A stretch of 64,000 nt of DNA from Patescibacteria group bacterium (GTDB lineage: Bacteria > Patescibacteriota > Patescibacteriia > UBA10025 > JAHIVO01), in contig JBAZKE010000001.1 in NCBI GenBank assembly GCA_041650915.1, positions 379,284-443,283 of the forward strand, written 5' to 3'. A program made the position numbers and the translations under genes. Positions within the stretch are counted from its first letter, which is position 1; each line of letters begins with the position of its first letter. A model generated the notes under the pieces. That model did not search any database, was not told the DNA's origin, and saw only the letters and a list, made by a program, of their open reading frames with translations. Below, one piece after another: positions 18,537-54,762 of this stretch.

Positions 18537-18610
18537 GCCGATGTAGCTCAGTTGGTAGAGCAACTCCATGGTAAGGAGTAGGTCGCCAGTTCAATTCTGG
18601 CCATCGGCTC
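18537..18610 (+). tRNA. tRNA-Thr (anticodon GGT)
   Basis: GCCGATGTAGCTCAGTTGGTAGAGCAACTCCATGGTAAGGAGTAGGTCGCCAGTTCAATTCTGGCCATCGGCT folds as a cloverleaf with anticodon loop AUGGUAA. Flanked by a 10-bp inverted repeat that extends the acceptor stem. No encoded CCA. Confidence 0.85.
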
Positions 18611-18667
18611 GGACGGGATAAATGCCGCCACTCCATGCCTGCCCCGTACATTGAGCGAAGCAAAATG

Positions 18668-18715
18668 ATGCGGGGGGTAAGGAGTAGGTCTGCGGTTCGA
18701 CTCCGCGCAACGGTT
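18668..18715 (+). pseudogene. tRNA 3'-half fragment (anticodon-stem 3' strand + T-arm + acceptor 3' strand)
   Basis: GGTAAGGAGTAGGTCTGCGGTTCGACTCCGCGCAACGG resembles the 3' half of the tRNA-Thr(GGT) above, with no matching 5' half. Partial 5' copies (TGTAGCYCAGYTGG x3) lie at 18481-18560. Confidence 0.5.
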
Positions 18716-18830
18716 GCAACGGGGAAAGCAATTTGACAGTCAAACATGGGTAGGTACCCCCGGCATTCGCCGGGACAGGCTCCGTGGTTTTTACCTCGGG
18801 CTTGGTGGACATGCCATACTCATATCTGGC

Positions 18831-18920
18831 GGGCGGGTAGGTACCGAAGTGGTCAAACGGGGCAGACTGTAAATCTGCTGGCTTCGGCCTTCGGGGGTTC
18901 GAATCCCTCCCTGCCCACCA
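18831..18920 (+). tRNA. tRNA-Tyr (anticodon GTA), long variable arm, CCA encoded
   Basis: GGGCGGG acceptor 5' strand, anticodon loop CUGUAAA, long variable arm, T-arm GGGGGTTCGAATCCCTC, 3' end CCTGCCCACCA. Flanked by about a 15-bp inverted repeat. Confidence 0.8.
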
Positions 18921-19290
18921 GATGTGAGTATGAGTAGCTGGCATACTGTTTGTGCCGCCGAAGGGCTGTATAAATCTGCTGGCCTCGGCCTTTAGGGGGT
19001 TCGAATCCCATGGGATTCGAACGGGCACGAACGAGGCGCAGCCGAGTGACAAACAATTCGAGCTTGCGCAGAATTGTTTGGTGCCCAGGACGAGAATCCC
19101 TCCCTGCCCACCAGATGTGAGTATGAGTAGCTGGCATACTGTTTGTGCCGCCGAAGGGCTGTATAAATCTGCTGGTTCCGGTCTTTTGGGGGTTTGCATC
19201 CCATGGGATTCGAACGGGCACGAACGAGGCGCAGCCGCAGGAGTATTTTTAAAACCTCATGACTCTTTAAAAAAGCTATCCGTTCGGACG
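18901..19290 (+). repeat. tandem ~195-bp duplication containing the tRNA-Tyr 3' end plus degenerate tRNA-Tyr-like sequence
   Basis: GAATCCCTCCCTGCCCACCAGATGTGAGTATGAGTAGCTGGCATACTGTTTGTGCCGCCGAAGGGCTGTATAAATCTGCTGG... occurs at 18901 and again at 19094. Each unit holds a degenerate anticodon arm (CTGTATAAATCTG) and a palindromic T-arm-like segment (GGGGGTTCGAATCCCATGGGATTCGAACGGG). Confidence 0.8.
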
Positions 19291-19291
19291 C

Positions 19292-19366
19292 GCCACCCTA
19301 GCTCAGTGGTAGAGCAACTGTTTTGTAAACAGTAGGTCGTCGGTTCGAATCCGACGGGTGGCTCCA
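19292..19366 (+). tRNA. tRNA-Thr (anticodon TGT), CCA encoded
   Basis: GCCACCCTAGCTCAGTGGTAGAGCAACTGTTTTGTAAACAGTAGGTCGTCGGTTCGAATCCGACGGGTGGCTCCA. Anticodon loop UUUGUAA. Confidence 0.85.
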
Positions 19367-19545
19367 GGCCCTAGCTCAGTGGGTCGAGACCACGAGCAAA
19401 CACAACTGCTTGTGTTTGCGAGGAGTCGAGACGGGCATGACGATGCGGGAACCGCCGGCATGCCCCGGAAGAGCAACTGTGGAGCCTATCCCGAGCGAAG
19501 TCGAGGGATAAACAGTAGGTCGTCGGTTCGAATCCGACGGGTAAC
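19367..19545 (+). pseudogene. tRNA-Thr-like pseudogene with a ~110-nt structured insertion between the D-arm and anticodon arm
   Basis: 5' part GGCCCTAGCTCAGTGGGTCGAG. The 3' part ATAAACAGTAGGTCGTCGGTTCGAATCCGACGGGT is identical to tRNA-Thr(TGT). The acceptor strands do not pair. The insert carries perfect hairpins (GCAAACACAA-CTGC-TTGTGTTTGC; GGGCATG...CATGCCC). Confidence 0.6.
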
Positions 19546-19685
19546 TTATCGGGTCGCCGCTCTGGCGGGTTACGTGTGGCTTGTCAAATAAGCTCCACTG
19601 CACCCCTTGTGCGCATGCCCCTCTTCCCAAAAAATGCGCACCATTTTTTGGGAGCACTGCAGAATTATTGATTAATCGCAATATT

Positions 19686-19841
19686 ATGTCACAAGACAAC
19701 ATCATCAAGCTCGAATGTACGGAGTGCAAACACATCAACTACCACTCGCACAAGAATAAAAAGCTGCACAAGGACCGGATTGAGATCAAGAAGCACTGTA
19801 AGTGGTGCAAAAAGCACACGATGCATAAAGAAACGAAGTAA
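19686..19841 (+). CDS. rpmG: 50S ribosomal protein L33
   Basis: [49 protein letters not shown] is an L33 zinc ribbon (CxxC...CxxC). Start at the internal ATG of track ORF 19581..19841. Confidence 0.85.
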
Positions 19842-19951
19842 TTTTGAAGACCTTTTTCGAAAGTAGCTTTCACTGTATTCCGAAATAAGCCGTATCGGCC
19901 ATCGCAGGTAACCCGAGACCTTTGGTTCGTAGTTGATTCGGAATTTTTTAT

Positions 19952-20026
19952 GGGGCTATAGTACAATGGCTAGTATAGCGGTCTCCAAAACCGTTGATCG
20001 AGGTTCGAATCCTCGTGGCCCCGCCA
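19952..20026 (+). tRNA. tRNA-Trp (anticodon CCA), CCA encoded
   Basis: GGGGCTATAGTACAATGGCTAGTATAGCGGTCTCCAAAACCGTTGATCGAGGTTCGAATCCTCGTGGCCCCGCCA. Anticodon loop CUCCAAA. Confidence 0.85.
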
Positions 20027-20175
20027 GAACTACCCGTCTCGGGGGCTTTTTGGTACGATGTTACAATAGCGTAACTAGCCAATGGATTCGAAAAGCAGCA
20101 GCGACCCTGAACTAAGTTCAGGGGAGCGCCGATGAATGCGAGTTTGCGCAGCATTCATCGCTGCTTATGGACCCG

Positions 20176-20240
20176 AATCCTCGTGGCCCCGCCAGAACTA
20201 CCCGTCACGGGGGCTTTTTGGTATGATGTTACAAAGGATC
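20176..20240 (+). repeat. direct repeat: second copy of the tRNA-Trp 3' end plus its downstream terminator
   Basis: GAATCCTCGTGGCCCCGCCAGAACTACCCGTC(T/A)CGGGGGCTTTTTGGTA(C/T)GATGTTACAA is present at 20006-20070 and again at 20176-20240 (att-like duplication). Confidence 0.75.
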
Positions 20241-34829: not shown

Positions 34830-35090
34830 TGAGGGACGAACCGAGGGTTCTTCCCTCATCAGCTCCTTTTTCCTTCAACGTATCGCTCAGCCCGGGACCC
34901 TATAACCCGTGGCTTCGCGATGGTTTAAAAACATTCAAGGGACGAACCGAGGGTTCTTCCCTCATCAGCTCCTTTTTCCTTCAACGTATCGCTCAGCCCG
35001 GGACCCGTAGATCCTGTCATTCGACAGGACAGGCCCGTGAGCTCGCGATGGTTTAAAAACATTCAAGGGACGAACCGAGAGATTTGAAGC
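34830..35090 (+). repeat. intergenic tandem repeat (about 2.3 copies of a ~107-132 bp unit with variable insert)
   Basis: CGCGATGGTTTAAAAACATTCAAGGGACGAACCGAGGGTTCTTCCCTCATCAGCTCCTTTTTCCTTCAACGTATCGCTCAGCCCGGGACCC is repeated at 34834 and 34941. Contains the GAGGG-TTCTT-CCCTC hairpin. The second unit has an extra CCTGTC-ATTC-GACAGG hairpin. Confidence 0.8.
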
Positions 35091-36674: not shown

Positions 36675-36774
36675 GTTTCATCACCACCTTTCGCTATTTG
36701 TCGAATGTTCTTTTTCTTTCTGCCTTTTCCATCCATCTAACCTCCTGTGCGCCCATTTGTCAATACTCACTACT

Positions 36775-36811
36775 GCTTGTTTTGCCGCTGGCAGGGGAGT
36801 AAAATGGGGGT
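36775..36811 (+). promoter_or_regulatory. conserved promoter module, copy a (TTGTTT-17-TAAAAT; leaderless-type spacing to ATG)
   Basis: CTTGTTTTGCCGCTGGCAGGGGAGTAAAATGGGGGT lies immediately before the ATG of the phosphoesterase gene. Confidence 0.6.
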
Positions 36812-37372
36812 ATGAAATTATTCGTGATAGCAGACCGACCGCCCCGCAGGCCCATTCGGGCCATTCTCTCGGAAAACCAGGTCGACGCGATCTGCACGCT
36901 TGGTGACCTGACGCTCCAGGACATCCGCCAGCTCGAGGATGTTGCCGGCATTCCAAAAGTCGGCGTGTACGGCAACCATGACAGTGGCACGTACATGAGC
37001 AGCCTCGGCATTGAGAATCTCCACCTCGCCACGGCCACGGTGAAGGGGATCGTCTTCGGCGGATTCCAGGGATCGGTGCGCTACAAGCCGGGGGAACATA
37101 TCATGTATACCCAGGAACAGGCAATGGAGCTGCTTGTCGGTTTCCCGCATGTCGATGTCATGCTTACGCACGCTCCGCCGTACGGCATCCACGATGAGCC
37201 GGACGATCCTGTCCACCAGGGATTCAGGGCGCTGAATGATTACATTGCCGTACAGCACCCCCGCTATCTCCTGCACGGGCATACCTATGCCCCTGAGCAT
37301 GACCGCACCGCCACGGTGGGCAGTACGAAGGTAATCTTTGTGTATCAAGATGCAATCGTGGATATCGTGTAA
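36812..37372 (+). CDS. metallophosphoesterase (calcineurin-like, YfcE/MJ0936-type)
   Basis: GDL, GNHD and GHTY/HAPP metal-ligand motifs. Confidence 0.75.
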   Translation: MKLFVIADRPPRRPIRAILSENQVDAICTLGDLTLQDIRQLEDVAGIPKVGVYGNHDSGTYMSSLGIENLHLATATVKGIVFGGFQGSVRYKPGEHIMYTQEQAMELLVGFPHVDVMLTHAPPYGIHDEPDDPVHQGFRALNDYIAVQHPRYLLHGHTYAPEHDRTATVGSTKVIFVYQDAIVDIV

Positions 37373-37430
37373 GGAAATGGTATAATTTTTAGGATTTCGC
37401 ATTTTGAGCCTGCCGCGCGAGCGGTTTGGG

Positions 37431-37467
37431 GTTGTTTTGTCGTTGGTGGGGGAGTAGAATGGGGGTA
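37431..37467 (+). promoter_or_regulatory. conserved promoter module, copy b (TTGTTT-17-TAGAAT)
   Basis: GTTGTTTTGTCGTTGGTGGGGGAGTAGAATGGGGGTA, 29 nt upstream of the ATG at 37496. Confidence 0.6.
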
Positions 37468-37495
37468 CAGTAACATAATATTTTGATTTAAAAAC

Positions 37496-38980
37496 ATGTC
37501 TATAAAAGCTGAAAAACAATCCAACGGCACAAACGCCGGCTTTGAAGCGACTCTCTGGGCCGCGGCTGATAAGATGCGCGGCAGTGTTGCATGGTTTTTA
37601 TTACTAGCGGTTTTTTGCTCTGGAATCCTGTTATCTTGGCCTGATCAGGCGCGTGCTGAATCGGGTTCGGAAACGAAAGACCGCTGGGTATTTAGAAAAA
37701 CGACTGAAAGAAAGGATTTGTGCGAGGCCGGACCGTCTTGCCTTAATCCTCAAGTAAATCTTGATCAATCGGGCGCCATTATTACCTGGGGAGCGGATTT
37801 AGGCGACTGTGACGGGGCTTATCAGGCCGTCGGCACATGGACCACGCCACCGGAAACGCTTATACCCGGGCAATCCGTCTCGACCTCCCTCGAAGCGTCA
37901 CTCAAACAGACAACCGCCTGCGCGGCGGCCCTTGATGCGGATAACTTTGTGTCTTTAATGGTTGGGAAAATGGTTCCTCCGGATATTTATGATGTCGGTA
38001 AATGGGAACAAATGGGGTTTGCCACGGTCCACCAACTTTTACAACAAGGCAAAGAATTTAGTGACAGCAAAACAGTTGATTGGGCCGTACCGCAGGGGAA
38101 TACCGGTGAGGAATTGCGTTTGCGGCTCGGAGCCGGAACCGGTTCATTACCTGGCGGGTATATCGTCTTTATCTATGACTACCAGACTGACGCAATCACC
38201 GCCACAGACGCACCCGCCGCGGCCGAAACAGAAACCGCAGACGATGTTTGCGCTATTAATACTACCCGCACGAGCTGGCGGTTTCCCAGCTTGATTTCAT
38301 CGGCCTATGCCCGCGATTCTGGCGCCCGGTTTGCGGATTTCAGCGGTGAGGTCACCGTGGCTCCAGGGAACGACCCTGCTGATTTGCGCCCGGCTGAAAT
38401 GGACATGGTTTTGGAAACCGGCAGCATCATCAAAACCGAGAGCGACAGCACTGCCATTATCAGTTTCGCGGATATGACCACTTTTTGCATGAAGCCGTTT
38501 ACCACCGTGATTCTAGACACGCCGCCGGAACAAGACAGCAAACTTTCTCTACTGGCCGGCAAGGTATGGATGAACGTGAAAAAAATGGTGAAGGACGGCA
38601 CGATGAATGTCACAATGAATCAGGCCGTGGCCGGCATCAAAGGCACGGTCTTTATATTGGAAGATGACGGTGACACTTCGGCCATAAAAGTAGTGGAAGG
38701 CAACGTGGAATACACCAGCCTGGCAAATGACGTGATGCTCCCGGTTGCCGGCGGAGAAACGGTAGTGGCGAGCGCGGATGGCCTGACGCCGAAGGCCGAT
38801 TTTGATATTGCCACCGAGCGCGCTCAATGGCAGGAATTTGCCAGCCCTCAGCCCGGAAATACAGTATCGGAAGATACAGATTCAAATTTTTCATACGCCT
38901 ATTGGAGCGCCATTCTCGTTGTAGTCATTGGCGGAGGGTGGGTAGTTATGAAAAAATTAAAACATAAACAAGCGCAGTAA
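37496..38980 (+). CDS. secreted/membrane-anchored protein whose first ~30 codons resemble an HsdM N-terminus (chimeric 5' end)
   Basis: Begins MSIKAEKQSNGTNAGFEATLWAAADKMRGS (the HsdM N-terminal LWxAADKLRG motif). It then runs directly into a TM/signal segment (VAWFLLLAVFCSGILLS) and a 460-aa extracellular region with a C-terminal TM. Confidence 0.6.
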   Translation: MSIKAEKQSNGTNAGFEATLWAAADKMRGSVAWFLLLAVFCSGILLSWPDQARAESGSETKDRWVFRKTTERKDLCEAGPSCLNPQVNLDQSGAIITWGADLGDCDGAYQAVGTWTTPPETLIPGQSVSTSLEASLKQTTACAAALDADNFVSLMVGKMVPPDIYDVGKWEQMGFATVHQLLQQGKEFSDSKTVDWAVPQGNTGEELRLRLGAGTGSLPGGYIVFIYDYQTDAITATDAPAAAETETADDVCAINTTRTSWRFPSLISSAYARDSGARFADFSGEVTVAPGNDPADLRPAEMDMVLETGSIIKTESDSTAIISFADMTTFCMKPFTTVILDTPPEQDSKLSLLAGKVWMNVKKMVKDGTMNVTMNQAVAGIKGTVFILEDDGDTSAIKVVEGNVEYTSLANDVMLPVAGGETVVASADGLTPKADFDIATERAQWQEFASPQPGNTVSEDTDSNFSYAYWSAILVVVIGGGWVVMKKLKHKQAQ

Positions 38981-39205: not shown

Positions 39206-39439
39206 GAATGGTTTCCTCGGGTAGTATCCTGCGCATCGGATACCTTATGCTTTCGCGCACTGCTTCTTTCGCATTCAGATATCAAGCATCAGGAAAATGC
39301 TTGAACCGAACATTCTAGCACGGGTTGGCCGCCCTGTCAAGAAGCGCCACCAATGTAAATAATTAAGGTAGCTAAGTTTTGGGGAAAGTTTAGGATAGTT
39401 TTTTGTTTGACATTATGGGGGTGCGGGGGTAGGTTTGGG

Positions 39440-39476
39440 GTTGTTTTGTCGTTCGTGAGGGAGTAAAATGGGGATC
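39440..39476 (+). promoter_or_regulatory. conserved promoter module, copy c (orphan; points antisense into the minus-strand gene 39561..39803)
   Basis: GTTGTTTTGTCGTTCGTGAGGGAGTAAAATGGGGAT. No plus-strand gene follows. Confidence 0.45.
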
Positions 39477-39500
39477 TGTGGCTTGATAAACGAATATCAT

Positions 39501-39532
39501 TCAATAAAGAGACCGGTCATGGTTGGCCGGTC
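39501..39532 (-). terminator. rho-independent terminator of the minus-strand small gene
   Basis: GACCGG-CCAACCATGA-CCGGTC hairpin followed by TCTTTATTG on the minus strand. Confidence 0.5.
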
Positions 39533-39560
39533 TGGGTTTCGGGCAGATTGAATCCACCTG

Positions 39561-39803
39561 TTATGATTTGTTCAATTCTCGCAAAGCGTTCACACCGATC
39601 TCCTGGTGCGTTGGGTCGTTTTCCACTTCCCGGAAAAACGCCGGGGCTAAATCCCCGAGAATCTCCTGGGCAGCGCCGCCGGTGATGACGTCACCGCAGC
39701 CCGTTTCTATCTTTTCCCGGGCGGCGCTCAGTACGGCATCTCTCCGGTCGGCAAGTTCGGGGTGATCGGTAAAGTACTTTTCGAGGTTTTTAATCGCAAT
39801 CAT
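39561..39803 (-). CDS. hypothetical small protein (80 aa)
   Basis: More protein-like than the overlapping plus ORF; has its own terminator. Confidence 0.45.
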   Translation of the reverse strand: MIAIKNLEKYFTDHPELADRRDAVLSAAREKIETGCGDVITGGAAQEILGDLAPAFFREVENDPTHQEIGVNALRELNKS

Positions 39804-40435: not shown

Positions 40436-40544
40436 TATCAGTACCCAACACAATGAAAGGGTGGTTTGCATGACGCAGATCACCCTTGATTTTTTTGTGC
40501 TCCCGCACCATTGAAAATGGTGTGAGAGGTTGATTTATTAGCAA

Positions 40545-40565
40545 AAAAGGAGGAGAATGGGGGTA
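40545..40565 (+). promoter_or_regulatory. conserved promoter module, truncated copy e at the edge of the AT-rich island
   Basis: AAAAAAGGAGGAGAATGGGGGTA keeps only the 3' half (the -10 and G-run) of the module. Confidence 0.4.
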
Positions 40566-40592
40566 TGTATTTGGTTTACACCATGATTATTA

Positions 40593-41468
40593 ATGACTAT
40601 GACTATGACAGATTACAGTGAGTTTCAAAAAAGATTCAAACTATTAGCGAGTAAAAATAAACATCTCGTAATTAACACCTTATCCAATATATTTACGATG
40701 AGGTTAATTGGTAATAAAACTCACGGTGATTTAGCAGAGATAGGCATGGTTGAATTTATTAACCAGTTCATGTATGACTTTAAAAGTATTCATGTTGGGA
40801 AAGATTTATTCCGGGCAAAAGAACATGAAGAGGATATAGTTGTTATTAATGAAATTACCAAAACTAAATTTCCCGTAAGTTTAAAGGCATATGGAGATGG
40901 GCCGCTACAACTTTCAACTGATTGTGACCAAAAAATGTTTCCATTTCTTGAGAAACAAGGTAAAAATATTGTAAATTCTAACAAAATAGAAGAGGTGTTT
41001 AAATCAAAAGAATTCGCAGCATTTGATGCAATAAATGTTATGCCACTTATTTATGATGAGAAAAAACAGAGATGTAATATTATGATTTTCGATCATAATA
41101 AAGCTATAAATGAAACTAGAAGGATTGTTTTCATTAATTTCAAAGAAAAATTTGATTTTGAAACCAAAAAAGTAATTCCAGGGAATTCTCGATCACACCC
41201 AATTTTTATGTTTCTTGATACTGGAGGAAATTATATATGTGAGGTTAGATATGGAGGCGCTTCAGCAAATGCACTTCAACGTGGTTTTTGGACTCATACA
41301 AAAAATGCACTTTCATTTTTTGATTCACTCACAAACGGCTGGATTGACTATTCTCATAATCAGACACTAGTAAAGTTGTTTAGCCTCGCACTTAATAGTT
41401 CTGAGCAGGGTCATAAATTAGCTAATGAAATTCTTCAGAAAGACATCGACAGATTAAAGACTTTATGA
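40593..41468 (+). CDS. putative type II restriction endonuclease (DpnII/MboI-family-like)
   Basis: 291 aa, AT-rich. Its stop overlaps the MTase start (ATGA). The block EVRYGGASANALQ resembles the DpnII-family EVNFYSGSGSKLN block; similarity judged by eye only. Confidence 0.4.
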   Translation: MTMTMTDYSEFQKRFKLLASKNKHLVINTLSNIFTMRLIGNKTHGDLAEIGMVEFINQFMYDFKSIHVGKDLFRAKEHEEDIVVINEITKTKFPVSLKAYGDGPLQLSTDCDQKMFPFLEKQGKNIVNSNKIEEVFKSKEFAAFDAINVMPLIYDEKKQRCNIMIFDHNKAINETRRIVFINFKEKFDFETKKVIPGNSRSHPIFMFLDTGGNYICEVRYGGASANALQRGFWTHTKNALSFFDSLTNGWIDYSHNQTLVKLFSLALNSSEQGHKLANEILQKDIDRLKTL

Positions 41469-42577
41469 CTGACCAGCAATTGAACATTTTTGGTAATTCC
41501 ACCATAACCACACCAAAAACTGAAGGTATTAAGTATGCTGGGTCAAAGTTAAAAATCTTGCCATATATAATTGAATTAGTAAGCGATTTAAAGGGTGTAA
41601 AAAAAATCTTAGATGGCTTTACTGGCACAACTCGTGTTGCACAAGCTATGGCACAACTTGGATATGACGTAACCGCCAGTGATATATCAATATGGTCGGA
41701 AGTATTTGCTAATTGTTATTTAAAGTCGAAGAAACCCGATAAATTTTATCAGGATATTCTAGACCATTTAAACAAGCTAAAGGGTTGTGATGGTTGGTAT
41801 ACTAGACATTATGGCGCCAAACCAAAAGAGAATAAAAAGCCATTTCAGGAAAAAAATACCCGTAAATTAGATGCGATCAGAGATGAAATTGAGAAGATTA
41901 ATTTACAATGGGTTGATAAATGTGTTATTTTGACCTCATTAATTAATGCATTAGATTCGGTTGATAGCACACTGGGTCATTATGTTTCATATCTCTCAAA
42001 TTGGTCTAAACGTTCGTATAATGATTTATATTTAAAATTACCAAAAAGAATTCAAAGTCCTGGCAAACATAAAGTGATTAAAGGAGATATTTTTGAAACA
42101 ATTAATAATAATGAATTTGATTTAGTGTATTTTGATCCACCGTATGGCTCAAACAATGAAAAAATGCCACCCAGCAGAGTCCGTTATGCCTCTTATTATC
42201 ATATTTGGACGACGGTTATCAAACATGATAAACCGGTAGTTTTTGGTAAGGTAAATCGAAGAGAAGATAGTAGGGACTTGGTAGCTGGTTCTGTATTTGA
42301 GGATTTTAGGAAAGATAATAATGGTTCATTTATTGCAATGGAAGCATTAAGAAGATTAGTCAAAGAAACAAAAGCACGATATATATTATTGTCATACAGT
42401 TCTGGCGGAAGAGCAACAAAAAAGGAACTTAATGAGATAATTGATGAATCGGGTAAACTATTAAAAGCAGTTGAAATTAATTATAAAAAGAACGTAATGG
42501 CTAATATGCGATGGACACATGAATGGATAAACAGTGATGGAAAGCATTCGGAATACCTTTTTTTAATGAAAAAATGA
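41465..42577 (+). CDS. D12-class (Dam-like) N6-adenine DNA methyltransferase
   Basis: N-terminal IKYAGSKLKILPYII (KWAGGK-type motif I) and catalytic VYFDPPYG (DPPY). Confidence 0.8.
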   Translation: MTDQQLNIFGNSTITTPKTEGIKYAGSKLKILPYIIELVSDLKGVKKILDGFTGTTRVAQAMAQLGYDVTASDISIWSEVFANCYLKSKKPDKFYQDILDHLNKLKGCDGWYTRHYGAKPKENKKPFQEKNTRKLDAIRDEIEKINLQWVDKCVILTSLINALDSVDSTLGHYVSYLSNWSKRSYNDLYLKLPKRIQSPGKHKVIKGDIFETINNNEFDLVYFDPPYGSNNEKMPPSRVRYASYYHIWTTVIKHDKPVVFGKVNRREDSRDLVAGSVFEDFRKDNNGSFIAMEALRRLVKETKARYILLSYSSGGRATKKELNEIIDESGKLLKAVEINYKKNVMANMRWTHEWINSDGKHSEYLFLMKK

Positions 42578-42589
42578 TAGGACAATGTT

Positions 42590-42745
42590 ATGGCAATAGA
42601 AAAGGTTAGTTTTATCGCGACAAAGTATAAAAACAAACCGACAATGGTACGTTTTTATACTAAAAAAGGTGATGTTGTAAGATTTTCAGCTCAAAAAAAA
42701 GCACCCGTAAAGCAGGTTGTTGAATTTAAAGCTAAGTCAAAATAA
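42590..42745 (+). CDS. small basic protein (51 aa)
   Basis: MAIEKVSFIATKYKNKPTMVRFYTKKGDVVRFSAQKKAPVKQVVEFKAKSK. Below the ORF-track length cut-off; lies between the MTase and rusA. Confidence 0.35.
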   Translation: MAIEKVSFIATKYKNKPTMVRFYTKKGDVVRFSAQKKAPVKQVVEFKAKSK

Positions 42746-42748
42746 ATT

Positions 42749-43198
42749 GTGAGCACTACATATTTTGATTACAGTTTTGGGTTGTCAGAAATTATTCCAT
42801 CAGGCAATCGTCAAAAAAGTGATAGTGCTTGTGCGTTTTATAAAGTTGTTGGTCAAGCGTTAAAAGATATTGATAAACAAGGAATCTTCCCAACAAAAAA
42901 GTTAGTTTTTATTTTTATTTTACAGTTTTTTTCGAATCAAGAAGAATATCAAAAACGAGATATTGATAATATGTGCAAAACCATGCTGGCGGCATTAAAA
43001 AATAAGATATATGAGGACGACGTACAAGTAAAAACGTTATTAATCAGTAAACAAATAAATAGTAAGATTCCGGTAAACTTCGTTTACATCGGAATAAAGT
43101 TATCCGATTACAAGGATAATACCGGAATGGTGAAAGTAAATATTAACAATGCCATATCATTGTTTCAGGGCTCTGTTAAACAAGCAGTTGAAAAGTAA
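42749..43198 (+). CDS. rusA: RusA-family Holliday junction resolvase (phage-type)
   Basis: QKRDIDNMCKTMLAALKNKIYEDDVQV matches the RusA catalytic block [28 protein letters not shown]. Confidence 0.7.
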   Translation: MSTTYFDYSFGLSEIIPSGNRQKSDSACAFYKVVGQALKDIDKQGIFPTKKLVFIFILQFFSNQEEYQKRDIDNMCKTMLAALKNKIYEDDVQVKTLLISKQINSKIPVNFVYIGIKLSDYKDNTGMVKVNINNAISLFQGSVKQAVEK

Positions 43199-43237
43199 TA
43201 TAATACGGTAGATACTATATGAGTGCTAATCCTAGCA

Positions 43238-43267
43238 CTTGTTTTGTTATTGGTGGGGGAGTAGGAT
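43238..43267 (+). promoter_or_regulatory. conserved promoter module, copy f (TTGTTT-17-TAGGAT)
   Basis: CTTGTTTTGTTATTGGTGGGGGAGTAGGATGG, 10 nt before the ATG at 43277. Confidence 0.55.
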
Positions 43268-43276
43268 GGAGAATAT

Positions 43277-44365
43277 ATGGTAAGCATTTTCGAACAAATT
43301 TCAATTTTATTACAAGGACAGCCTTGGATGGTTTTTGGTGGTTATAATTTAAAACTCCAGGGGATTGATAATAGCGCAAATGATATTGATATTGTTACGA
43401 CTGATAAGGGGATTGGGATAATAGCCAAAACGAGAAAAGAAAAAGTTAATCGAGGAAATAATTGGAAAGGATGTAAATTTGTCGTAAATGGACTGCAAAT
43501 TGACGTAATCACTGAGGAGGGTTTTACTCAACAATTTTTTCAAAAATACTTACAAGAAAACAGAATAAACATTATATATTATGATGGCGTACCAGTATTT
43601 TGTTTAAAATTATCTGAGCAACGAAAAGGATACGAAGCAATTTTAGCCGCTCATAAGGGGAGCAATGACCCAACTCTTAAGATAGAATTATTGAAAAAAT
43701 ATGAGGAAAGTAATAAATTCACCCCCGAGCAATGGTATGTTGTGTGGAAAAGAATTTTCGAAGAAAATTTATTAGCCGACTTATATAAACTAGTCAGTAA
43801 TCAACCGCAGCAAAGTGGAGGTTTGAATTTCGTTATTGTACTGATGTGCCTCGTAACTATGGATTTAGTGGGGAAGCTTATTTGCGGATCAAATAACAAA
43901 GACGCAATAAGGGCATTTATTAAATCGGAGTTTTTTCAAATACCTAAAGCTTACAATGGAGACGACTTTGCGGATATAATTAATACTGAATTAAGAAATA
44001 ACCTGGCTCATGCCTTTTTCCCTGAAAGGAACATTGCAATTGGCAGAAATACACCTTTTCAACATTTTAATATTATACCAGTAGTCGGTTCTGAAAGAAA
44101 ATTATTTTGGATTGATGCTGATGAACTGCACCGGGATCTTTTGCAATCGTTAGATCAATATAAAGCGGCTTTAATTGAAGATAAAAAACAGGACGGCGAT
44201 AGACTCAGGTCATTATTTGTTAAATATGTTAATGAAAATATGTTAACTGAGTCGATAAATCTTAAAGGGTTTATGGAAAAGAATTATAAGCTCGATGTAC
44301 ATAATTATCCAATTAGTTCAGATAAGGTTACTCATACTACAACGTTACCGCCTGAAACAAAATAA
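43277..44365 (+). CDS. fused minimal nucleotidyltransferase (MNT) - HEPN-like protein
   Basis: N-terminal WMVFGGYNLKLQGIDNSANDIDIV (hGG-x13-DhD NTase motif, Lnu-like). C-terminal ELRNNLAHAFF fits the HEPN R-x4-H motif. Confidence 0.5.
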   Translation: MVSIFEQISILLQGQPWMVFGGYNLKLQGIDNSANDIDIVTTDKGIGIIAKTRKEKVNRGNNWKGCKFVVNGLQIDVITEEGFTQQFFQKYLQENRINIIYYDGVPVFCLKLSEQRKGYEAILAAHKGSNDPTLKIELLKKYEESNKFTPEQWYVVWKRIFEENLLADLYKLVSNQPQQSGGLNFVIVLMCLVTMDLVGKLICGSNNKDAIRAFIKSEFFQIPKAYNGDDFADIINTELRNNLAHAFFPERNIAIGRNTPFQHFNIIPVVGSERKLFWIDADELHRDLLQSLDQYKAALIEDKKQDGDRLRSLFVKYVNENMLTESINLKGFMEKNYKLDVHNYPISSDKVTHTTTLPPETK

Positions 44366-44456
44366 TTTCCATTGTTTATATCGGCAGATCCGCCCCCCCG
44401 CTGGCGGTTTTTTGTTTGGGATGATCGTGATACAATAATAATACATAAAAAATTAT

Positions 44457-44696
44457 ATGAAAAAAGCACTATATATTTCCTTTGCTATCGTTGTACTGCT
44501 CGGTGCCGGGATATTCATTTACTTCCAATACTGGGGCACTGATGGCATCCCTACGAATTCAAACACCAACACGCCTGCTAATACGAATGCGGTCGCCTGC
44601 ACCATGGAAGCTAAACTTTGCCCGGACGGATCGGCAGTGGGACGCACTGGCCCGAATTGCGAATTCGCGGCCTGCCCGGAAGTGGAGCAGGAGTAG
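44457..44696 (+). CDS. small secreted/membrane-anchored protein with NTNTPANTN linker
   Basis: 79 aa with N-terminal TM and Cys pairs in the C-terminal part. Confidence 0.45.
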   Translation: MKKALYISFAIVVLLGAGIFIYFQYWGTDGIPTNSNTNTPANTNAVACTMEAKLCPDGSAVGRTGPNCEFAACPEVEQE

Positions 44697-44900
44697 GTTG
44701 GAAGGAAGGAGGGTGTAAGTTTTAGGAAGAAAGTAAGGAAGTATGAGATAGGAAGAAGGGTGGATGAAGGGAAGTAGGGCGAATGATGAAGGCATAGTAG
44801 TAGGAAGTAAGTTTTTAGGTTGTACGAAGAAAGTAAAGAAGAAGGAAATTAGAAGAAGGATACGCATTGACGCGAAAAGGAAATTCTGATAACATTGAAG
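44697..44900 (+). repeat. strand-asymmetric purine-rich (GA) low-complexity tract with internal imperfect repeat
   Basis: GGAAGGAAGGAGGG...AGGAAGAAAGTAAGGAAG... The units (GTAAGTTTT(T)AGG...GAAGAAAGTAARGAAG) occur twice. Confidence 0.6.
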
Positions 44901-44996
44901 CACATAAAACTTCCCCAAATTTGCGGGAAGTTATATTTATTATGGATAAGTATTGTGGATAAATGAATGTTGACAATATAACATATATGATATATT

Positions 44997-45350
44997 ATGA
45001 TTAAAGCGTATTATTTCGTGCGACAAAACGGAAGGGCGCCGGTTGAGGAGTATGTTCGTTCAATCAACTCAAAACGGGAAATTGCCTATATCCAGGCAGC
45101 GATTGATAAGTTAATCAAGTATGAAGGAAGGTTACCGCTGCCATACGCAAAGAAAATCCGCGATAAAGTATGGGAGTTACGTTCACCATTAGGCAATCGG
45201 GTTTTTTATTTCATTGATACAGGCCAGGAGATTATTCTCCTCGATGGGCACACAAAAAAGCGTGACCGAATAGAACCTCGAATCCTGAATCGCGTTTTGA
45301 ACCACTATAGGGAGTACCAAGCTACCCGTAACCGTAAACCGTACCAATAA
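44997..45350 (+). CDS. type II toxin, RelE/ParE superfamily (Gp49/HigB-like)
   Basis: 117 aa. KVWELRSPLGNRVFYFIDTGQEIILLDGHTKK is the Gp49-like (DUF891) signature. Confidence 0.65.
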   Translation: MIKAYYFVRQNGRAPVEEYVRSINSKREIAYIQAAIDKLIKYEGRLPLPYAKKIRDKVWELRSPLGNRVFYFIDTGQEIILLDGHTKKRDRIEPRILNRVLNHYREYQATRNRKPYQ

Positions 45351-45360
45351 CAAATCATAT

Positions 45361-45627
45361 ATGAATAAGAATAATATTTTTTATAAATTTCAAAAGGACA
45401 AAGAATACCAACGCTACTACAAAGAAGCAAGCGATATGCTTGAAATTGCCATTCAGATCGCTGAAGCGAGGAAGAAACAAAAGATGACCCAGGTCCAGTT
45501 AGCAAAACATATCGGTATGCCCCAGAGCCAGATTGCCAGGATTGAGAGCGGTAATAGCAATACAACTGTCAGTACACTGTATAAAGTCTTAAACGCGCTT
45601 AATTTGCGTTTGAAATTGGCGAACTAA
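45361..45627 (+). CDS. XRE-family HTH antitoxin (HigA-like)
   Basis: MTQVQLAKHIGMPQSQIARIESGNSN is an XRE HTH. Immediately downstream of the toxin. Confidence 0.65.
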   Translation: MNKNNIFYKFQKDKEYQRYYKEASDMLEIAIQIAEARKKQKMTQVQLAKHIGMPQSQIARIESGNSNTTVSTLYKVLNALNLRLKLAN

Positions 45628-45734
45628 TTATTTTTTCTTTTACATTTCGCCTTAACGGGCGGTTTTTTATTTGAGATGAATATGGAAGGACGGGGCGTTT
45701 GTTTATTATGGAGAAATAATATACAATACCAAAC

Positions 45735-46034
45735 ATGACCAAGAACCCATTTCTCAATGCACTCGCAGCAGGTGCGTACATCGTACTGGTAGTTGGTATC
45801 ATGACGTACATGGGCAAACTCAATGGCGGCCAGGACCAGGAGTTTATCACGCCGCTCGCGGTACTATCGCTGTTCACGTTGTCAGCCGCGGTGATGGGGT
45901 ATCTGTTCCTATACCAGCCGTTTAAGCTGTACTTCAATAACGAAAAAGAGGCTGCAGTGAAGCTCTTCCTTAAGACAGTTGCGATTTTTGGTGTTATGAC
46001 CGCATGCATACTGGTAGTCGTGGCCGTAGCATAG
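45735..46034 (+). CDS. small membrane protein (3 TM)
   Basis: 99-aa hydrophobic ORF. Confidence 0.45.
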   Translation: MTKNPFLNALAAGAYIVLVVGIMTYMGKLNGGQDQEFITPLAVLSLFTLSAAVMGYLFLYQPFKLYFNNEKEAAVKLFLKTVAIFGVMTACILVVVAVA

Positions 46035-46134
46035 AGTACCCTTGAGATTTTGCCGAGGTTGTTTTTTTATTGGAGAAGATTCGGTTAGAAGCGGTTTTTT
46101 ATTTAAAGTAATCGTGATACAATTGTGTTACTAT

Positions 46135-46299
46135 GAATAAAATAACTCGAATAGCACTGTCCATTCTCGCGATACTGTTTGGGGCGTTTATGTTTGTGTA
46201 TGGCGGATATGACGACAGCCCGGGAGGGCAATTATTGGGATTGGTGCTGGTTATTGGCGGCATTGTGCTGATAATAAAAAGCAGGAAGAAAAAGGAAAA
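46135..46299 (+). CDS. small membrane protein (54 aa, 2 TM, Lys-rich tail)
   Basis: MNKITRIALSILAILFGAFMFVYGGYDDSPGGQLLGLVLVIGGIVLIIKSRKKKEK. Below the track cut-off. Preceded by a terminator/promoter junction motif. Confidence 0.35.
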
Positions 46300-46637
46300 A
46301 TAAGAAGCATCCAACTACCGCGATGGGATGCTGCGCATTGCCGGAGAACTGGGCGCACGTTGTTTTTTTGCCGACTGGCTTTTGTACCAGGGTACGGCGA
46401 CCAGGTGAAAGCCGAAGCCATCAACCGCTTGCCACGGGAGGTTTTCAATTTTTTCGAGCAGTTGTCTTCGCTGATTGCCAGAATCGTCGGGTAGAATTTT
46501 TAGAAACAAAAACAGGCTTCACGCATTGACAGCGCGGGGATTATTTGGTTAACTGCTTAAATCAGTTTTGTGAAACAGGCCTTTGATACTGCCAGTAAAC
46601 TGGCAAAAACCCCAAAACAAAAGAAAGGAGTGTGCCC

Positions 46638-52179: not shown

Positions 52180-54762
52180 ATGGAAGCTGTACGAAGGAAC
52201 CATCCGCGATCCGTACGGGGTGGCGGTATTTTATTTGCAGTAGGGCTCGTGGCACTCGGCTTTTGTGCCGCCGGGATTGTCGCACCGGGCGAAGCGGACG
52301 CACAGAGCATCAGCTGGACGCCAAATAGTGCCGCTGGATTTGATGATGCGGCGAACGTTTACACCTATTCGCTCGTCGAGTATGGGGGCAGCCTGTACAC
52401 CGGTGCGAGCAACTTCGTGACCGGTGCTGAAATTTGGCGCTACGACGGCACGGACTGGGCACAGGTGAACGACGACGGATTCGGAAATGCAGAAAATGTT
52501 GAGGCAACAAGCCTTGCGGTGTTCGGCGGGATGCTTTATGCCGGAACGTCAAACCTCACGACCGGTATTGAAATTTGGCGCTACGACGGCACGGACTGGG
52601 CACAGGTGAACGACGACGGATTCGGGGATGCCAACAACAACATGGCATACGATCTCTTCGAGTTCGATGGCAAACTGTACACCGGAGCCACCAACTACGC
52701 GACCGGCGTTGAAATGTGGGCGTATGACGGCACGGACTGGGCACAGGTGAACGACGACGGATTCGGGGACGCAGGCAATCTTTACGGGCTGGCCATGCTC
52801 GAATACGCAGGGAGCTTGTACATCGGTACGCTCAGGGAAATTGATAACGCGGGTGCCGAGCTCTGGGCGTACGATGGCACCATCTGGGCGCAGGTCGGTA
52901 CGGGGGGCTTCGGCAATGTGAATAATATCGGCTTCATGGATCTCGCGTCGTTCGACGGTGCGCTCTTTATCAGCGCCCAGAATCCAATCGAGGGAGGAGA
53001 GGTGTGGCAGTACGACGGCACGGATTTTGAGCAGGTGAGCTCCGGTGGCTTCGATGACGCGAATAATGCCAGCGTATTTTCCTTGGAAGTATACAACCAT
53101 ACCCTGTATGGAGGCACGACAAATTACGCAACCGGAACAGAACTATGGTCGTATGACGGATCCCAGTGGGAGCAGGTGAACGAGGACGGTTTTGGCCAAG
53201 CAGACAATTTTAGCGCTCCGCTGCTGACCGCCATCGGCGGCGTACTGTACGCGGGCACGGCAACGGGTGACATCGGCACCGAGATCTGGCAGGGCGAGCT
53301 GCCCGATGGCAATGGGCCCTCGGTCAGCGAACAAGTGCCGGCCAGCGGTGACAGCGGCGTCGCCGTTGATTCTACGATATCTTTTTTCCTTGATGATGCG
53401 GTATACGACGTCGATAGCACGACGCTTGACGTATCCGTTGCAGGGCAGGGTGGGATCGTTGGCGGTGAGTTTGCGGATGGCTTTTCCGGCTCGATTGCTG
53501 AGAGCGGCGTCGGCAGCTTCGACGTAACGATCGATTCCGATCATGAGTTCGCATACGGCAGCACGGTCGAGGTGGCAGTGACGGTGAGTGACGCACGGGG
53601 AAATGAGAGTACAGCCGCGTGGTCGTTCCGTGCCACGGCTGACCGCCCGTCCCTCGGGATCGTCATGTCTCCTGCGTCATCAGGCGGCCCGAACATCCGG
53701 GTCGTCGACGAGCAGGGCGCCCAGATTTCATCATTTTTCGCGTATGACCAGTCTCTCCGCATGGGGCTCGAAGTGGCGCAGGCGGATATCGACGGCGACG
53801 GCACGAATGAGATTATCGTCACTCCCGGCAGCGGAGTCGAGTCGCGGATCAAGGCGTTCGAACTTGACGGCACGGAGATCGCCTCCGCGCTCGCTTTTAA
53901 TGAGGGATTCACGGGCGGCGTGACCGTAGCGGTCGGCGATTTCGACGGTGACCTCCGCGAGGAAATCGCGGTCGCGCCGATATCCGGCGGAGGCCCGAAC
54001 ATCCGGATCTACTCGCTCAATGACGAAGGGGACGGGCTCGAGCTCGTTGACTGGTTTTTCGCGTACGATACCGCGTTCCGTGGGGGCGTCAACCTCGTAG
54101 CCGGTGACACCGATGGTGATACGGTCGATGAGATTATTACCGCACCGCGGAGCCAGGGCGGCCCCGACGTGCGCGTGTTCTCGTACAACGCGGCGTCAGG
54201 TGCATTTGAGCTCACGGCGAACGTCATGGCATACCAGTCGGCATACCACGGCGGCGTGCAGCTCGCGGCAGGCGATATCGACGGCGACGGGGCGGATGAC
54301 GTCGTTGTCTCGCCGTACCTCAACGGCGGCCCGAACATCCGCGTGTACACGATAAACGTGAGTGGTGACCTCGAGCTTCTCACCTGGGCTATGGCATACG
54401 ATGCAACGTACCGCGGCACGCTCTCCATGTCGGTCGGCGATATCGACGGCGACGGCACAGGCGAGGTCGTACTCGCGCCGAAAACACTCGGCGGCCCGAA
54501 CATACGCATCTTCCAGTATGAAAATTCGTCGCTGGCCCTCATGGACTGGTTCATGGCGTACCAGGACAACTTCCGCGGCGGCGTGAATCTGTTCGTCGCT
54601 GACGTAGACGGGGACGGCTTCGATGAGGTGATAGCCTCGCCGGCTTCGCAGGGCGGCCCAAACGTGCGCGTGTACAGCATGGATTCCAGCACGAGGGTTT
54701 TGGATTCCTGGTTTTGGGCGTTTCCTGAGGGTTTCCGCGGCGGCGTTAATTTTGGCAAGTAA
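52180..54762 (+). CDS. large secreted surface protein: N-terminal ~10x (YDGTDWxQVNDDGFG) propeller-like repeats, Ig-like middle region, C-terminal FG-GAP/VCBS-like Ca-binding repeats
   Basis: Signal/TM at the N-terminus. Repeats EIWRYDGTDWAQVNDDGFG are encoded by near-identical DNA (52431-52490, 52572-52630, 52724-52770). C-terminal D-x-D-G-D-G-x-x-E repeats alternate with GGPNIRV. Confidence 0.7.
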   Translation: MEAVRRNHPRSVRGGGILFAVGLVALGFCAAGIVAPGEADAQSISWTPNSAAGFDDAANVYTYSLVEYGGSLYTGASNFVTGAEIWRYDGTDWAQVNDDGFGNAENVEATSLAVFGGMLYAGTSNLTTGIEIWRYDGTDWAQVNDDGFGDANNNMAYDLFEFDGKLYTGATNYATGVEMWAYDGTDWAQVNDDGFGDAGNLYGLAMLEYAGSLYIGTLREIDNAGAELWAYDGTIWAQVGTGGFGNVNNIGFMDLASFDGALFISAQNPIEGGEVWQYDGTDFEQVSSGGFDDANNASVFSLEVYNHTLYGGTTNYATGTELWSYDGSQWEQVNEDGFGQADNFSAPLLTAIGGVLYAGTATGDIGTEIWQGELPDGNGPSVSEQVPASGDSGVAVDSTISFFLDDAVYDVDSTTLDVSVAGQGGIVGGEFADGFSGSIAESGVGSFDVTIDSDHEFAYGSTVEVAVTVSDARGNESTAAWSFRATADRPSLGIVMSPASSGGPNIRVVDEQGAQISSFFAYDQSLRMGLEVAQADIDGDGTNEIIVTPGSGVESRIKAFELDGTEIASALAFNEGFTGGVTVAVGDFDGDLREEIAVAPISGGGPNIRIYSLNDEGDGLELVDWFFAYDTAFRGGVNLVAGDTDGDTVDEIITAPRSQGGPDVRVFSYNAASGAFELTANVMAYQSAYHGGVQLAAGDIDGDGADDVVVSPYLNGGPNIRVYTINVSGDLELLTWAMAYDATYRGTLSMSVGDIDGDGTGEVVLAPKTLGGPNIRIFQYENSSLALMDWFMAYQDNFRGGVNLFVADVDGDGFDEVIASPASQGGPNVRVYSMDSSTRVLDSWFWAFPEGFRGGVNFGK

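What the first reader, a model, noticed from the sequence alone, without database searches (positions are those of the whole stretch)
37496..37600. hsdM 5' end fused in-frame to a secreted protein
The first 30 codons (…TNAGFEATLWAAADKMRGS) are the near-universal N-terminal motif of type I R-M methyltransferase HsdM. The frame then continues into a signal/TM segment and a 460-aa extracellular protein. Together with promoter copy b, this suggests the promoter cassette travelled with, or derives from, an hsdM upstream region and displaced the native 5' end of this gene. It may also mark a decayed type I R-M locus.
Basis: partly seen in the sequence, partly recalled or inferred. Interest (0 to 1): 0.55.

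Follow-up and report, generated by a model that had tools for sequence, protein, structure and literature searches.

The report
hsdM start fused to surface-protein gene
The promoter-proximal start and first ~30 codons of a lost type I restriction-modification methylase gene (hsdM) are joined in frame to the signal peptide of a FecR-domain surface protein in a Patescibacteria genome; this is a real but ordinary scar of gene loss that now supplies the surface-protein gene with its 5' end.

Summary
Residues 2-29 of the 494-aa ORF at 37496..38980 (+) are homologous to the extreme N-terminus of HsdM. The match is 21/28 identical to a Methanoregula HsdM (E=3e-10 within the window). A 31-aa query scores E=3e-5 against 1.84 billion proteins. 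Similarity stops abruptly at residue 30-31.

The rest is a FecR-domain (PF04773) surface protein: signal-peptide core, AxA cleavage site (ARA|ES), an all-beta domain, the FecR domain and a C-terminal membrane anchor. Its closest homologues (40-65% identity across the alignment) lack the 26-residue extension and begin with short ordinary signal peptides. So the native 5' end was replaced.

No catalytic HsdM domain, hsdS or hsdR remnant exists anywhere in the 64-kb window. The type I locus was therefore deleted, not decayed in place.

The upstream promoter-like element is not hsdM-specific. Similar copies precede unrelated neighbouring genes, and a 93%-identical copy lies 2 kb downstream with no hsdM.

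All hsdM-derived residues fall within the predicted cleaved signal peptide, whichever ATG is used (Met1 or Met27). The mature protein is therefore unchanged.

Verdict: a genuine chimeric 5' end made by deletion or illegitimate recombination. Modest interest.

The parts
37373..37480 (+). Intergenic repeat element, copy b. It fills the gap after the stop of the upstream metallophosphoesterase gene and is paralogous to 39383-39488 (copy c).
   Evidence: Core 37423-37464 vs 39432-39473 is 39/42 identical (score 69 vs 18+/-2.3 in shuffles). A soft local alignment extends to 37373-37480 vs 39383-39488.
37432..37460 (+). Sigma-70-like promoter: -35 TTGTTT (37432-37437), 17-nt G-rich spacer, -10 TAGAAT (37455-37460). 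Predicted transcription start is A37467, giving a 29-nt AU-rich leader without a Shine-Dalgarno sequence.
   Evidence: Direct reading. The same architecture in copy a places the predicted start on the A of the ATG at 36812. Function is inferred, not shown.
37496..37585 (+). hsdM-derived coding fragment: hsdM's own ATG plus codons 2-30 (MSIKAEKQSNGTNAGFEATLWAAADKMRGS).
   Evidence: Agreement with the HsdM consensus falls to 0-3% from residue 30-32 on, so the junction lies at about nt 37583-37590.
37574..37576 (+). Internal ATG (Met27). It is an alternative start that would give a textbook signal peptide, MRGS + hydrophobic core + ARA|E.
   Evidence: Met is a natural variant at this HsdM position (36/119). 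No Shine-Dalgarno sequence lies upstream.
37586..37657 (+). Native part of the signal peptide of the FecR-domain protein: hydrophobic core (res 31-46) and c-region ending A52-R53-A54, with predicted cleavage before E55.
   Evidence: Hydropathy >2 for windows starting at residues 29-39. The 'A-x-A-E-S' site aligns with the closest homologues P0002 and P0003.
37658..38980 (+). Mature FecR-domain surface protein: all-beta N-terminal domain (res ~61-232), linker, FecR domain (res 312-405 = nt 38429-38710), C-terminal TM anchor (res ~467-485 = nt 38894-38950), stop at 38978-38980.
   Evidence: Pfam PF04773 at 52 bits vs cut-off 24. NCBIfam partial matches to LipL45/Lsa33. AlphaFold model. Foldseek best matches are FecR-type anti-sigma periplasmic domains 4m0n and 6ovk.
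39383..39488 (+). Copy c of the promoter element. It is an orphan: it points at the 3' end of a convergent 80-aa gene (39561-39803, -), and no hsdM sequence follows it.
   Evidence: Downstream alignment to the hsdM fragment is not above shuffles (score 20 vs 19+/-3.3).
36768..36809 (+). Copy a of the promoter motif, directly in front of the metallophosphoesterase gene (ATG 36812, apparently leaderless).

Best explanation
This is a chimeric 5' end left by loss of a type I restriction-modification operon.

Origin (inferred): a deletion or illegitimate recombination joined two pieces. One is the promoter, the 29-nt leader, the ATG and the first 29-31 codons of a resident hsdM gene. The other is the hydrophobic core of the signal peptide of a FecR-domain surface-protein gene. 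The join is in frame and removed that gene's own promoter-proximal end.

Expression (inferred): the gene is now transcribed from the former hsdM promoter (-10 TAGAAT at 37455-37460). Translation most likely starts at hsdM's own ATG (37496), because that initiation region is intact. The in-frame Met27 (37574), also hsdM-derived, is a possible second start.

Why it is tolerated: with either start, the hsdM-derived residues form only the n-region of a Sec signal peptide, with K26 and R28 next to the hydrophobic core. That peptide is predicted to be cut after Ala54. The mature, C-terminally anchored FecR-domain protein is therefore identical to what a native gene would give.

Shown: homology of residues 2-29 to HsdM; the sharp junction; absence of the rest of hsdM, hsdS and hsdR; absence of the extension in homologues.

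Inferred: the deletion mechanism, promoter use, start codon and cleavage.
For: HsdM homology and its location at the very start of hsdM genes.

In 120 genomes the motif always lies 6-20 codons after the nearest in-frame ATG, where one is present. 115 of the 120 continue as HsdM, and 68 of the 71 ORFs of at least 400 aa carry NPP[FYW]. The window's Met1 is 14 codons upstream of GFE, the normal distance.

Sharp loss of similarity after residue 29-31.

The rest of the ORF is a FecR-domain protein with 135 homologues at E<=1. The closest lack the extension.

Signal-peptide features and C-terminal anchor.

No other type I R-M piece in the window.

Truncated hsdM 5' remnants are common elsewhere. 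20 of 90 evaluable genes with this motif are under 400 aa. All 14 best library hits are 41-151-aa stubs, and at least two of them (P0121, P0125) are joined to an HsdS-like C-terminal tail.

An independent Logan assembly (SRR8542065) is 100% identical over 13.9 kb, including the junction.

GC and GC3 of the fragment match the rest of the gene.

The locus borders a low-GC defence island with a complete type II R-M system and a toxin-antitoxin pair.
Against: No relative close enough to show the ancestral arrangement. The nearest FecR homologue is 67% identical and the nearest neighbour-gene homologue 60%, both with no synteny.

The rest of the 680-kb genome could not be searched for an intact hsdM.

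Neither ATG has a Shine-Dalgarno sequence, although several neighbouring genes do. The start codon is therefore unresolved.

No read-level data were available to exclude a misassembly shared by both assemblies.

Promoter activity rests only on a consensus match.
Confidence: 0.75

Rival explanations
1. Same fusion at the DNA level, but translation starts only at Met27 (37574). The hsdM ATG and codons 1-26 would then be an untranslated, or only incidentally translated, leader of about 107 nt. The protein would have a standard 28-residue signal peptide.
For: MRGS + hydrophobic core + ARA|E is a textbook Sec signal peptide. The closest homologues have short n-regions of 3-16 residues. In the MFE fold, ATG27 sits in the loop of a GCCGCG/CGCGGC hairpin.
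Against: The intact hsdM initiation region (AU-rich leader + ATG1) lies upstream and in frame, and ribosomes starting there would read through. ATG27 has no Shine-Dalgarno sequence and sits in GC-rich sequence. The fold is not better than shuffles (z=+0.84). Some more distant homologues are called with n-regions of 28-40 residues.
Confidence: 0.35
2. The 5' end was not created by a deletion of an adjacent operon. Instead, recombination primed by the homologous promoter elements b and c copied 'promoter + hsdM codons 1-30' from an hsdM that once followed copy c. The copy landed in front of the FecR-domain gene, and the hsdM operon behind c was later lost. Copy c would be the orphaned original promoter.
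For: b and c are direct repeats (39/42 core, ~105 nt overall) flanking the gene. Copy c drives no recognisable gene. The exact motif GGGAGTARAATGGGG occurs three times within 2.7 kb and nowhere else in 64 kb.
Against: Nothing downstream of c resembles hsdM. The model needs two events where one deletion suffices. No comparative data are available.
Confidence: 0.12
3. Assembly chimera. Reads from an hsdM gene and from the FecR-domain gene were joined wrongly, so the fusion does not exist in the cell.
For: The source is a metagenome-assembled genome, and read data were not available here.
Against: Two assemblies made with different software are identical over 13.9 kb around the junction. The junction is in frame and gives a functional-looking signal peptide. 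GC3 is the same on both sides. There is no repeat at the junction that could mislead an assembler.
Confidence: 0.04
4. Chance or convergent resemblance. The N-terminus only looks like HsdM.
For: Pfam HsdM_N, NCBIfam and a PDB phmmer search give no hit for the short fragment.
Against: E=3e-5 against 1.84e9 proteins and E=3e-10 within the window. The match spans 28 residues, including positions not used in any search pattern, and lies at the same distance from the ATG as in real HsdMs.
Confidence: 0.01

Closest known systems
Truncated hsdM 5' remnants, annotated e.g. as 'type I restriction-modification system subunit M N-terminal domain-containing protein' (MDO8872317.1 = P0121, Methanoregula MAG)
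   Same: They keep hsdM's start and the KxxSNGxNLGFExxLWAAADK[LM]RG N-terminus and lose the catalytic body. They arise by deletion inside or around type I R-M loci.
   Different: Those remnants are short stubs of 41-151 aa, in at least two cases joined to the C-terminal tail of HsdS. Here the stub is joined in frame to a long unrelated gene and supplies its expression signals. None of 120 motif-bearing loci examined showed a comparable fusion to an unrelated long ORF.
FecR-domain (PF04773) surface proteins such as Leptospira LipL45 and Lsa33, and the periplasmic domains of FecR/PupR anti-sigma regulators
   Same: The body of the protein has a FecR domain by sequence (52 bits) and by fold (4m0n, 6ovk).
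   Different: It has no N-terminal cytoplasmic anti-sigma domain and no adjacent ECF sigma factor or TonB-dependent transducer. The topology is signal peptide + ectodomain + C-terminal anchor. It scores far below the LipL45 and Lsa33 cut-offs.
Signal peptides with long N-terminal extensions, e.g. the extended signal peptide region of autotransporters (from general knowledge, not tested here)
   Same: If Met1 is used, the signal peptide would be 54 residues with a 30-residue n-region before a normal hydrophobic core and AxA site.
   Different: The extension here is an accidental hsdM relic unique to one gene, not a conserved export-modulating module.

Membership tests
HsdM (type I R-M methyltransferase subunit) | N-terminal motif ...GFExxLWxAADKxRG... 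a few codons after the start | tested here: met
   residues 2-29 match, 21/28 identical to a Methanoregula HsdM.
HsdM (type I R-M methyltransferase subunit) | Complete HsdM_N helical domain (PF12161) continuing with ...EYKHVVLGLIFLKY... | tested here: not met
   Consensus agreement drops to 0-3% from residue 30-32. No PF12161 hit even at E<=10.
HsdM (type I R-M methyltransferase subunit) | N6_Mtase catalytic domain (PF02384) with the NPP[FYW] motif | tested here: not met
   Pfam finds only FecR. No NPP[FYW] in the translation, whereas 68 of 71 long motif-bearing ORFs have it.
HsdM (type I R-M methyltransferase subunit) | Neighbouring hsdS and hsdR genes | tested here: not met
   tblastn of 3089 ORFs from 120 hsdM loci against the window found only housekeeping matches besides the 37.5-kb site. 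Neighbours are a metallophosphoesterase and small unknown ORFs.
FecR-domain protein family (PF04773) | FecR domain above Pfam's gathering score | tested here: met
   52.2 bits vs cut-off 24, residues 312-405. Foldseek top hits are 4m0n and 6ovk_R.
FecR-type anti-sigma factor (cell-surface signalling) | Cytoplasmic N-terminal anti-sigma domain, one central TM helix, and a partner ECF sigma factor gene nearby | tested here: not met
   The N-terminus is a signal peptide and the TM helix is C-terminal. No sigma-factor gene lies among the neighbours.
Sec-type cleavable signal peptide | Positively charged n-region, 10-20-residue hydrophobic core, small-x-small cleavage site | tested here: inconclusive
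   K26/R28, core residues 31-46 and A52-R-A54 are seen by direct reading, by hydropathy and by alignment with homologues. No dedicated predictor or experiment was available.

The most novel reading that the evidence does not exclude
The ~105-nt element (copies b and c, with looser copies before neighbouring genes of the defence island) could be a recombination-prone promoter module. It might shuffle 5' ends between genes at the edge of a defence island. The hsdM'-FecR chimera would then be one product of a recurrent mechanism that rewires expression of surface proteins in Patescibacteria. Alternatively, the retained HsdM peptide could have been kept because it modulates export of the protein.
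Probability: 0.07. Interest if true: 0.5.

Novelty: new member of a known kind. Interest (0 to 1): 0.24.

Why it matters
It is a clean, datable example of how loss of a defence system can leave its promoter and start codon behind. Those signals can then be captured by a neighbouring gene, and a cleaved signal peptide makes such an accident harmless.

In practice it is an annotation caveat. The 494-aa model (MFA5134519.1, 'FecR family protein') carries an N-terminus that could mislead motif- or k-mer-based searches for type I R-M systems. The mature protein begins at about residue 55.

It shows that a type I R-M gene once existed in this lineage. It does not reveal a new mechanism.

Tried and rejected
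Searches on the short fragment that gave nothing:
- phmmer of the first 43 aa against PDB: 0 hits.
- Pfam and NCBIfam on the 45-aa N-terminus: no HsdM family, because the fragment is too short.

Collection scans that gave nothing:
- Metagenome scan for NAGFEATLWAAADKMRG (wobble-degenerate): 0 hits.
- Metagenome and viral scans for the promoter core: 0 hits. No intact hsdM with this promoter or leader could be found.
The best DNA identity to any hsdM 5' end was only 55/72.

Synteny:
- Contigs of the three closest FecR homologues and of two neighbour-gene homologues show no conserved context and no adjacent type I system.

RNA and structure checks:
- Rfam on 36.5-40.7 kb and on the whole window: only tRNAs.
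- RNA fold of the leader plus fragment: unremarkable, z=+0.84.

Ideas rejected:
- A decayed hsdM start after promoter copy c: alignment not above shuffles.
- An apparent 65-aa extension of one HsdM alignment past the junction (L057): spurious, with an 8-residue gap and almost no identities beyond RG.
- The promoter motif is absent from the upstream regions of the homologues.

Full report
**What is there.** The ORF at 37496..38980 (+) encodes 494 aa. It begins MSIKAEKQSNGTNAGFEATLWAAADKMRGS and continues VAWFLLLAVFCSGILLSWPDQARA|ESGSE. The identical protein is in public collections as MFA5134519.1, 'MAG: FecR family protein [Patescibacteria group bacterium]', on a 679,916-bp contig. An independent Logan assembly of run SRR8542065 (L003) is 100% identical to the window over 13,931 bases, including this region.

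**Is the N-terminus really HsdM-like?** Yes.
- tblastn of the 30 residues against 72,556 plasmids returned 29 places. 21 lie under genes annotated 'class I SAM-dependent DNA methyltransferase'; the rest have no listed feature.
- The two places I opened lie at codons ~6-24 of hsdM genes. Both are followed by hsdS, and one by hsdR as well.
- The reverse test used the first 45 residues of those two HsdMs against the six-frame window. It hit only 37532-37588 (E about 1e-6; next best E>=2).
- In those hits the motif lies 6-20 codons after the nearest in-frame ATG, where one is present. 115 of 120 continue as HsdM, and 68 of the 71 ORFs of at least 400 aa carry NPP[FYW].
- ORFs from those loci produced 117 tblastn alignments, all at 37499-37684. 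The best is a Methanoregula HsdM: 21/28 identical over window residues 2-29, E=3e-10.
- A full HMMER scan of 1.84 billion representative proteins with the 31-residue query gave 14 hits at E<=1e-3 (best 3e-5). All carry the motif at residues 4-33 of HsdM-type N-termini.
- Residues that my pattern did not enforce also follow the consensus: N10 56%, G11 71%, N13 62%.
- Met27 is not a new mutation. 30% of these HsdMs have Met there and 70% have Leu.

**Where does the homology stop?** Agreement with the HsdM consensus is complete through G29. It falls to 0-3% at S30, V31, A32 and beyond, where HsdMs read H/N-M-D-A-A-E-Y-K-H. The junction is therefore at about nt 37583-37590. One BLAST alignment that ran further (L057) is spurious: it has an 8-residue gap and almost no identities beyond RG.

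**What is the rest of the ORF?**
- Pfam finds a FecR domain (PF04773, 52 bits against a cut-off of 24, residues 312-405) and nothing of HsdM.
- NCBIfam gives partial FecR-domain matches to the Leptospira surface proteins LipL45 and Lsa33, far below their cut-offs.
- An AlphaFold model (mean pLDDT 62; the domain at 61-232 is around 80) shows a helix over residues 15-45, an all-beta N-terminal domain, a beta-rich FecR region and a C-terminal helix at 467-493.
- The best Foldseek matches in the PDB are periplasmic domains of FecR-type anti-sigma regulators, 4m0n and 6ovk.
- 135 homologues were found at E<=1. The closest are 62-67% identical by BLASTP and come from uncultured organisms.
- In the alignment, all close homologues start with a short n-region followed by the hydrophobic core. 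The A-x-A|E-S site and the following KDRWV are shared with the nearest ones. None has the 26-residue extension.
- Hydropathy shows one N-terminal hydrophobic core (residues ~31-46) and one C-terminal anchor (residues ~467-485) followed by KKLKHK.
- The protein is therefore an exported, C-terminally anchored ectoprotein. It is not an anti-sigma factor: it has no cytoplasmic N-domain and no sigma-factor gene nearby.

**Is this a decayed type I locus?** I used 3089 ORFs of at least 100 aa from the 120 hsdM loci, which include their hsdS and hsdR genes, as tblastn queries against the whole window. Apart from the 37.5-kb site, the only matches identified were housekeeping genes (DnaE, ThrRS, a RecQ-like helicase). 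So no body of hsdM, hsdS or hsdR survives within 37 kb upstream or 26 kb downstream. The upstream neighbour is a metallophosphoesterase. Downstream lie two small unknown genes and then a low-GC (31-42%) island. The island carries a complete type II R-M system (REase_II 40593-41468, D12-class MTase 41465-42577) and a Gp49/HTH toxin-antitoxin-like pair. The site is thus at the edge of a defence island, which fits turnover of defence genes, but this is circumstantial.

**The promoter element.** The repeat family found has the form TTGTTT - 17 nt - TA(G/A)AAT - GGGGG.
- The exact 15-mer GGGAGTARAATGGGG occurs at 36795, 37450 and 39459 and nowhere else in the window. Two-mismatch copies lie at 40548 and 43257.
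- Copy b (37423-37464) and copy c (39432-39473) are 39/42 identical (score 69 against 18+/-2.3 for shuffles). A softer alignment extends the relationship to 37373-37480 versus 39383-39488.
- Downstream of c there is nothing resembling the hsdM leader or coding fragment (score 20 against 19+/-3.3). Copy c faces the 3' end of a convergent gene.
- In copy a the A of the ATG at 36812 lies exactly 7 nt after the -10 hexamer, which suggests a leaderless mRNA. In copy b the same position is A37467, which gives a 29-nt AU-rich leader before ATG 37496.
- The motif is absent from the 128 other loci fetched by that point, including the upstream regions of the FecR homologues, and from the metagenome and viral collections.
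- The element is therefore a promoter type of this genome or island that several unrelated genes share, not a module specific to hsdM.
- The fragment's GC (52%) and GC3 (53%) equal those of the rest of the gene, so hsdM was a resident gene rather than a very recent import.

**Which start codon?** Neither ATG 37496 nor ATG 37574 is preceded by a Shine-Dalgarno sequence. Several neighbouring genes (starts at 36674-, 39803-, 40049+, 46638+) have clear ones. The RNA fold of the leader and fragment is no more stable than shuffles (z=+0.84). ATG27 lies in the loop of a small GC hairpin. ATG1 is hsdM's own start, at the normal distance from the motif, and its leader is intact. I therefore consider initiation there somewhat more likely (about 0.55-0.6). 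Met27 would give the more canonical signal peptide.

The point that matters is that the choice does not change the product. All hsdM-derived residues lie upstream of the predicted cleavage site after Ala54. This is inference; no signal-peptide predictor or experiment was available.

**Mechanism.** The simplest account is one deletion or illegitimate recombination event. It joined hsdM codon ~30 to the signal-peptide core of the FecR-domain gene and removed the rest of the type I operon and the native 5' end of the surface-protein gene.

A two-step alternative is recombination primed by the homologous promoter copies b and c, followed by loss of an hsdM operon behind c. This would explain the orphan copy c but has no direct support.

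Hsd loci are known to suffer truncation and pseudogenisation; for example, hsdR is truncated by a premature stop codon in some Mycoplasma agalactiae strains, including PG2 (PMC9465063). In my own sample, 20 of 90 evaluable motif-bearing hsdM genes are shorter than 400 aa. All 14 best library hits are 41-151-aa stubs, and at least two (P0121, P0125) are fused to an HsdS-like C-terminal tail. What is unusual here is the in-frame fusion to a long unrelated gene, which I did not see in any of the 120 loci.

**What could not be done.** No close relative of this genome exists in the searchable collections. The nearest FecR homologue is 67% identical and the nearest metallophosphoesterase 60%, both without synteny. 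Read-level verification of the junction was not possible.

**Verdict.** The fusion and the displacement of the native 5' end are supported. The ideas that the promoter 'travelled with' hsdM and that a type I locus is decaying in place are not supported. It is a tidy example of a known kind of event (a gene remnant giving a chimeric 5' end and captured expression signals), made harmless by signal-peptide cleavage. Interest is modest.

Noticed in passing
window 39383-39560 (+): Orphan copy (c) of the promoter element. It points at a hairpin (39510-39535) and at the 3' end of a convergent 80-aa gene (39561-39803, -). It could drive a ~60-nt small RNA or an antisense transcript, or it could be the relic of a lost gene's promoter.
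   Followed up: partly
window 36795-36814 and 40548-40567: In two copies of the promoter motif, an ATG begins exactly 7 nt after the -10 hexamer (TAAAAT-GGGGGT-ATG). This suggests leaderless mRNAs in this Patescibacteria genome. At 40565 the ATG is out of frame with the called restriction-enzyme start (40593/40599).
   Followed up: partly
window 34832-35080: A 106-nt non-coding unit is repeated about 2.4 times in tandem between two small genes, with 69 nt 100% identical between copies. There is no Rfam match.
   Followed up: no
window 40500-46300: A low-GC island (31-42% against ~55% for the surroundings) with a complete type II R-M system (REase_II E=1e-116; D12-class MTase E=3.5e-135), a Gp49/HigB-like plus HTH antitoxin pair (44997-45627), and several unknown ORFs.
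   Followed up: partly
P0121, P0125 (library proteins); L047 (Verrucomicrobiae MAG): In other genomes, hsdM N-termini are fused directly to a C-terminal tail that looks like that of HsdS (...LRDALLPKL[ML]SGEVR[VI]). This suggests recurrent internal deletions in type I operons that join hsdM 5' to hsdS 3'.
   Followed up: partly
window 18537-20234: A cluster of at least four tRNA genes with duplicated segments: 144-nt repeats at 18901/19094 (95% identical), identical 34-nt tRNA 3' halves at 19326/19509, and 61-nt repeats at 20006/20174.
   Followed up: no
window 52372-54750: Two sets of in-gene tandem repeats, of 141 nt and of ~162-168 nt (D-x-D-G-D-type, FG-GAP-like), in a large ORF. This is probably a repeat-rich surface protein.
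   Followed up: no
JGI contig of P0137: In one relative, the metallophosphoesterase homologue lies next to an Mrr-type restriction enzyme and about 6 kb from a 734-aa HsdM_N/N6_Mtase/Eco57I protein. This hints that the gene often borders defence genes in Patescibacteria.
   Followed up: no
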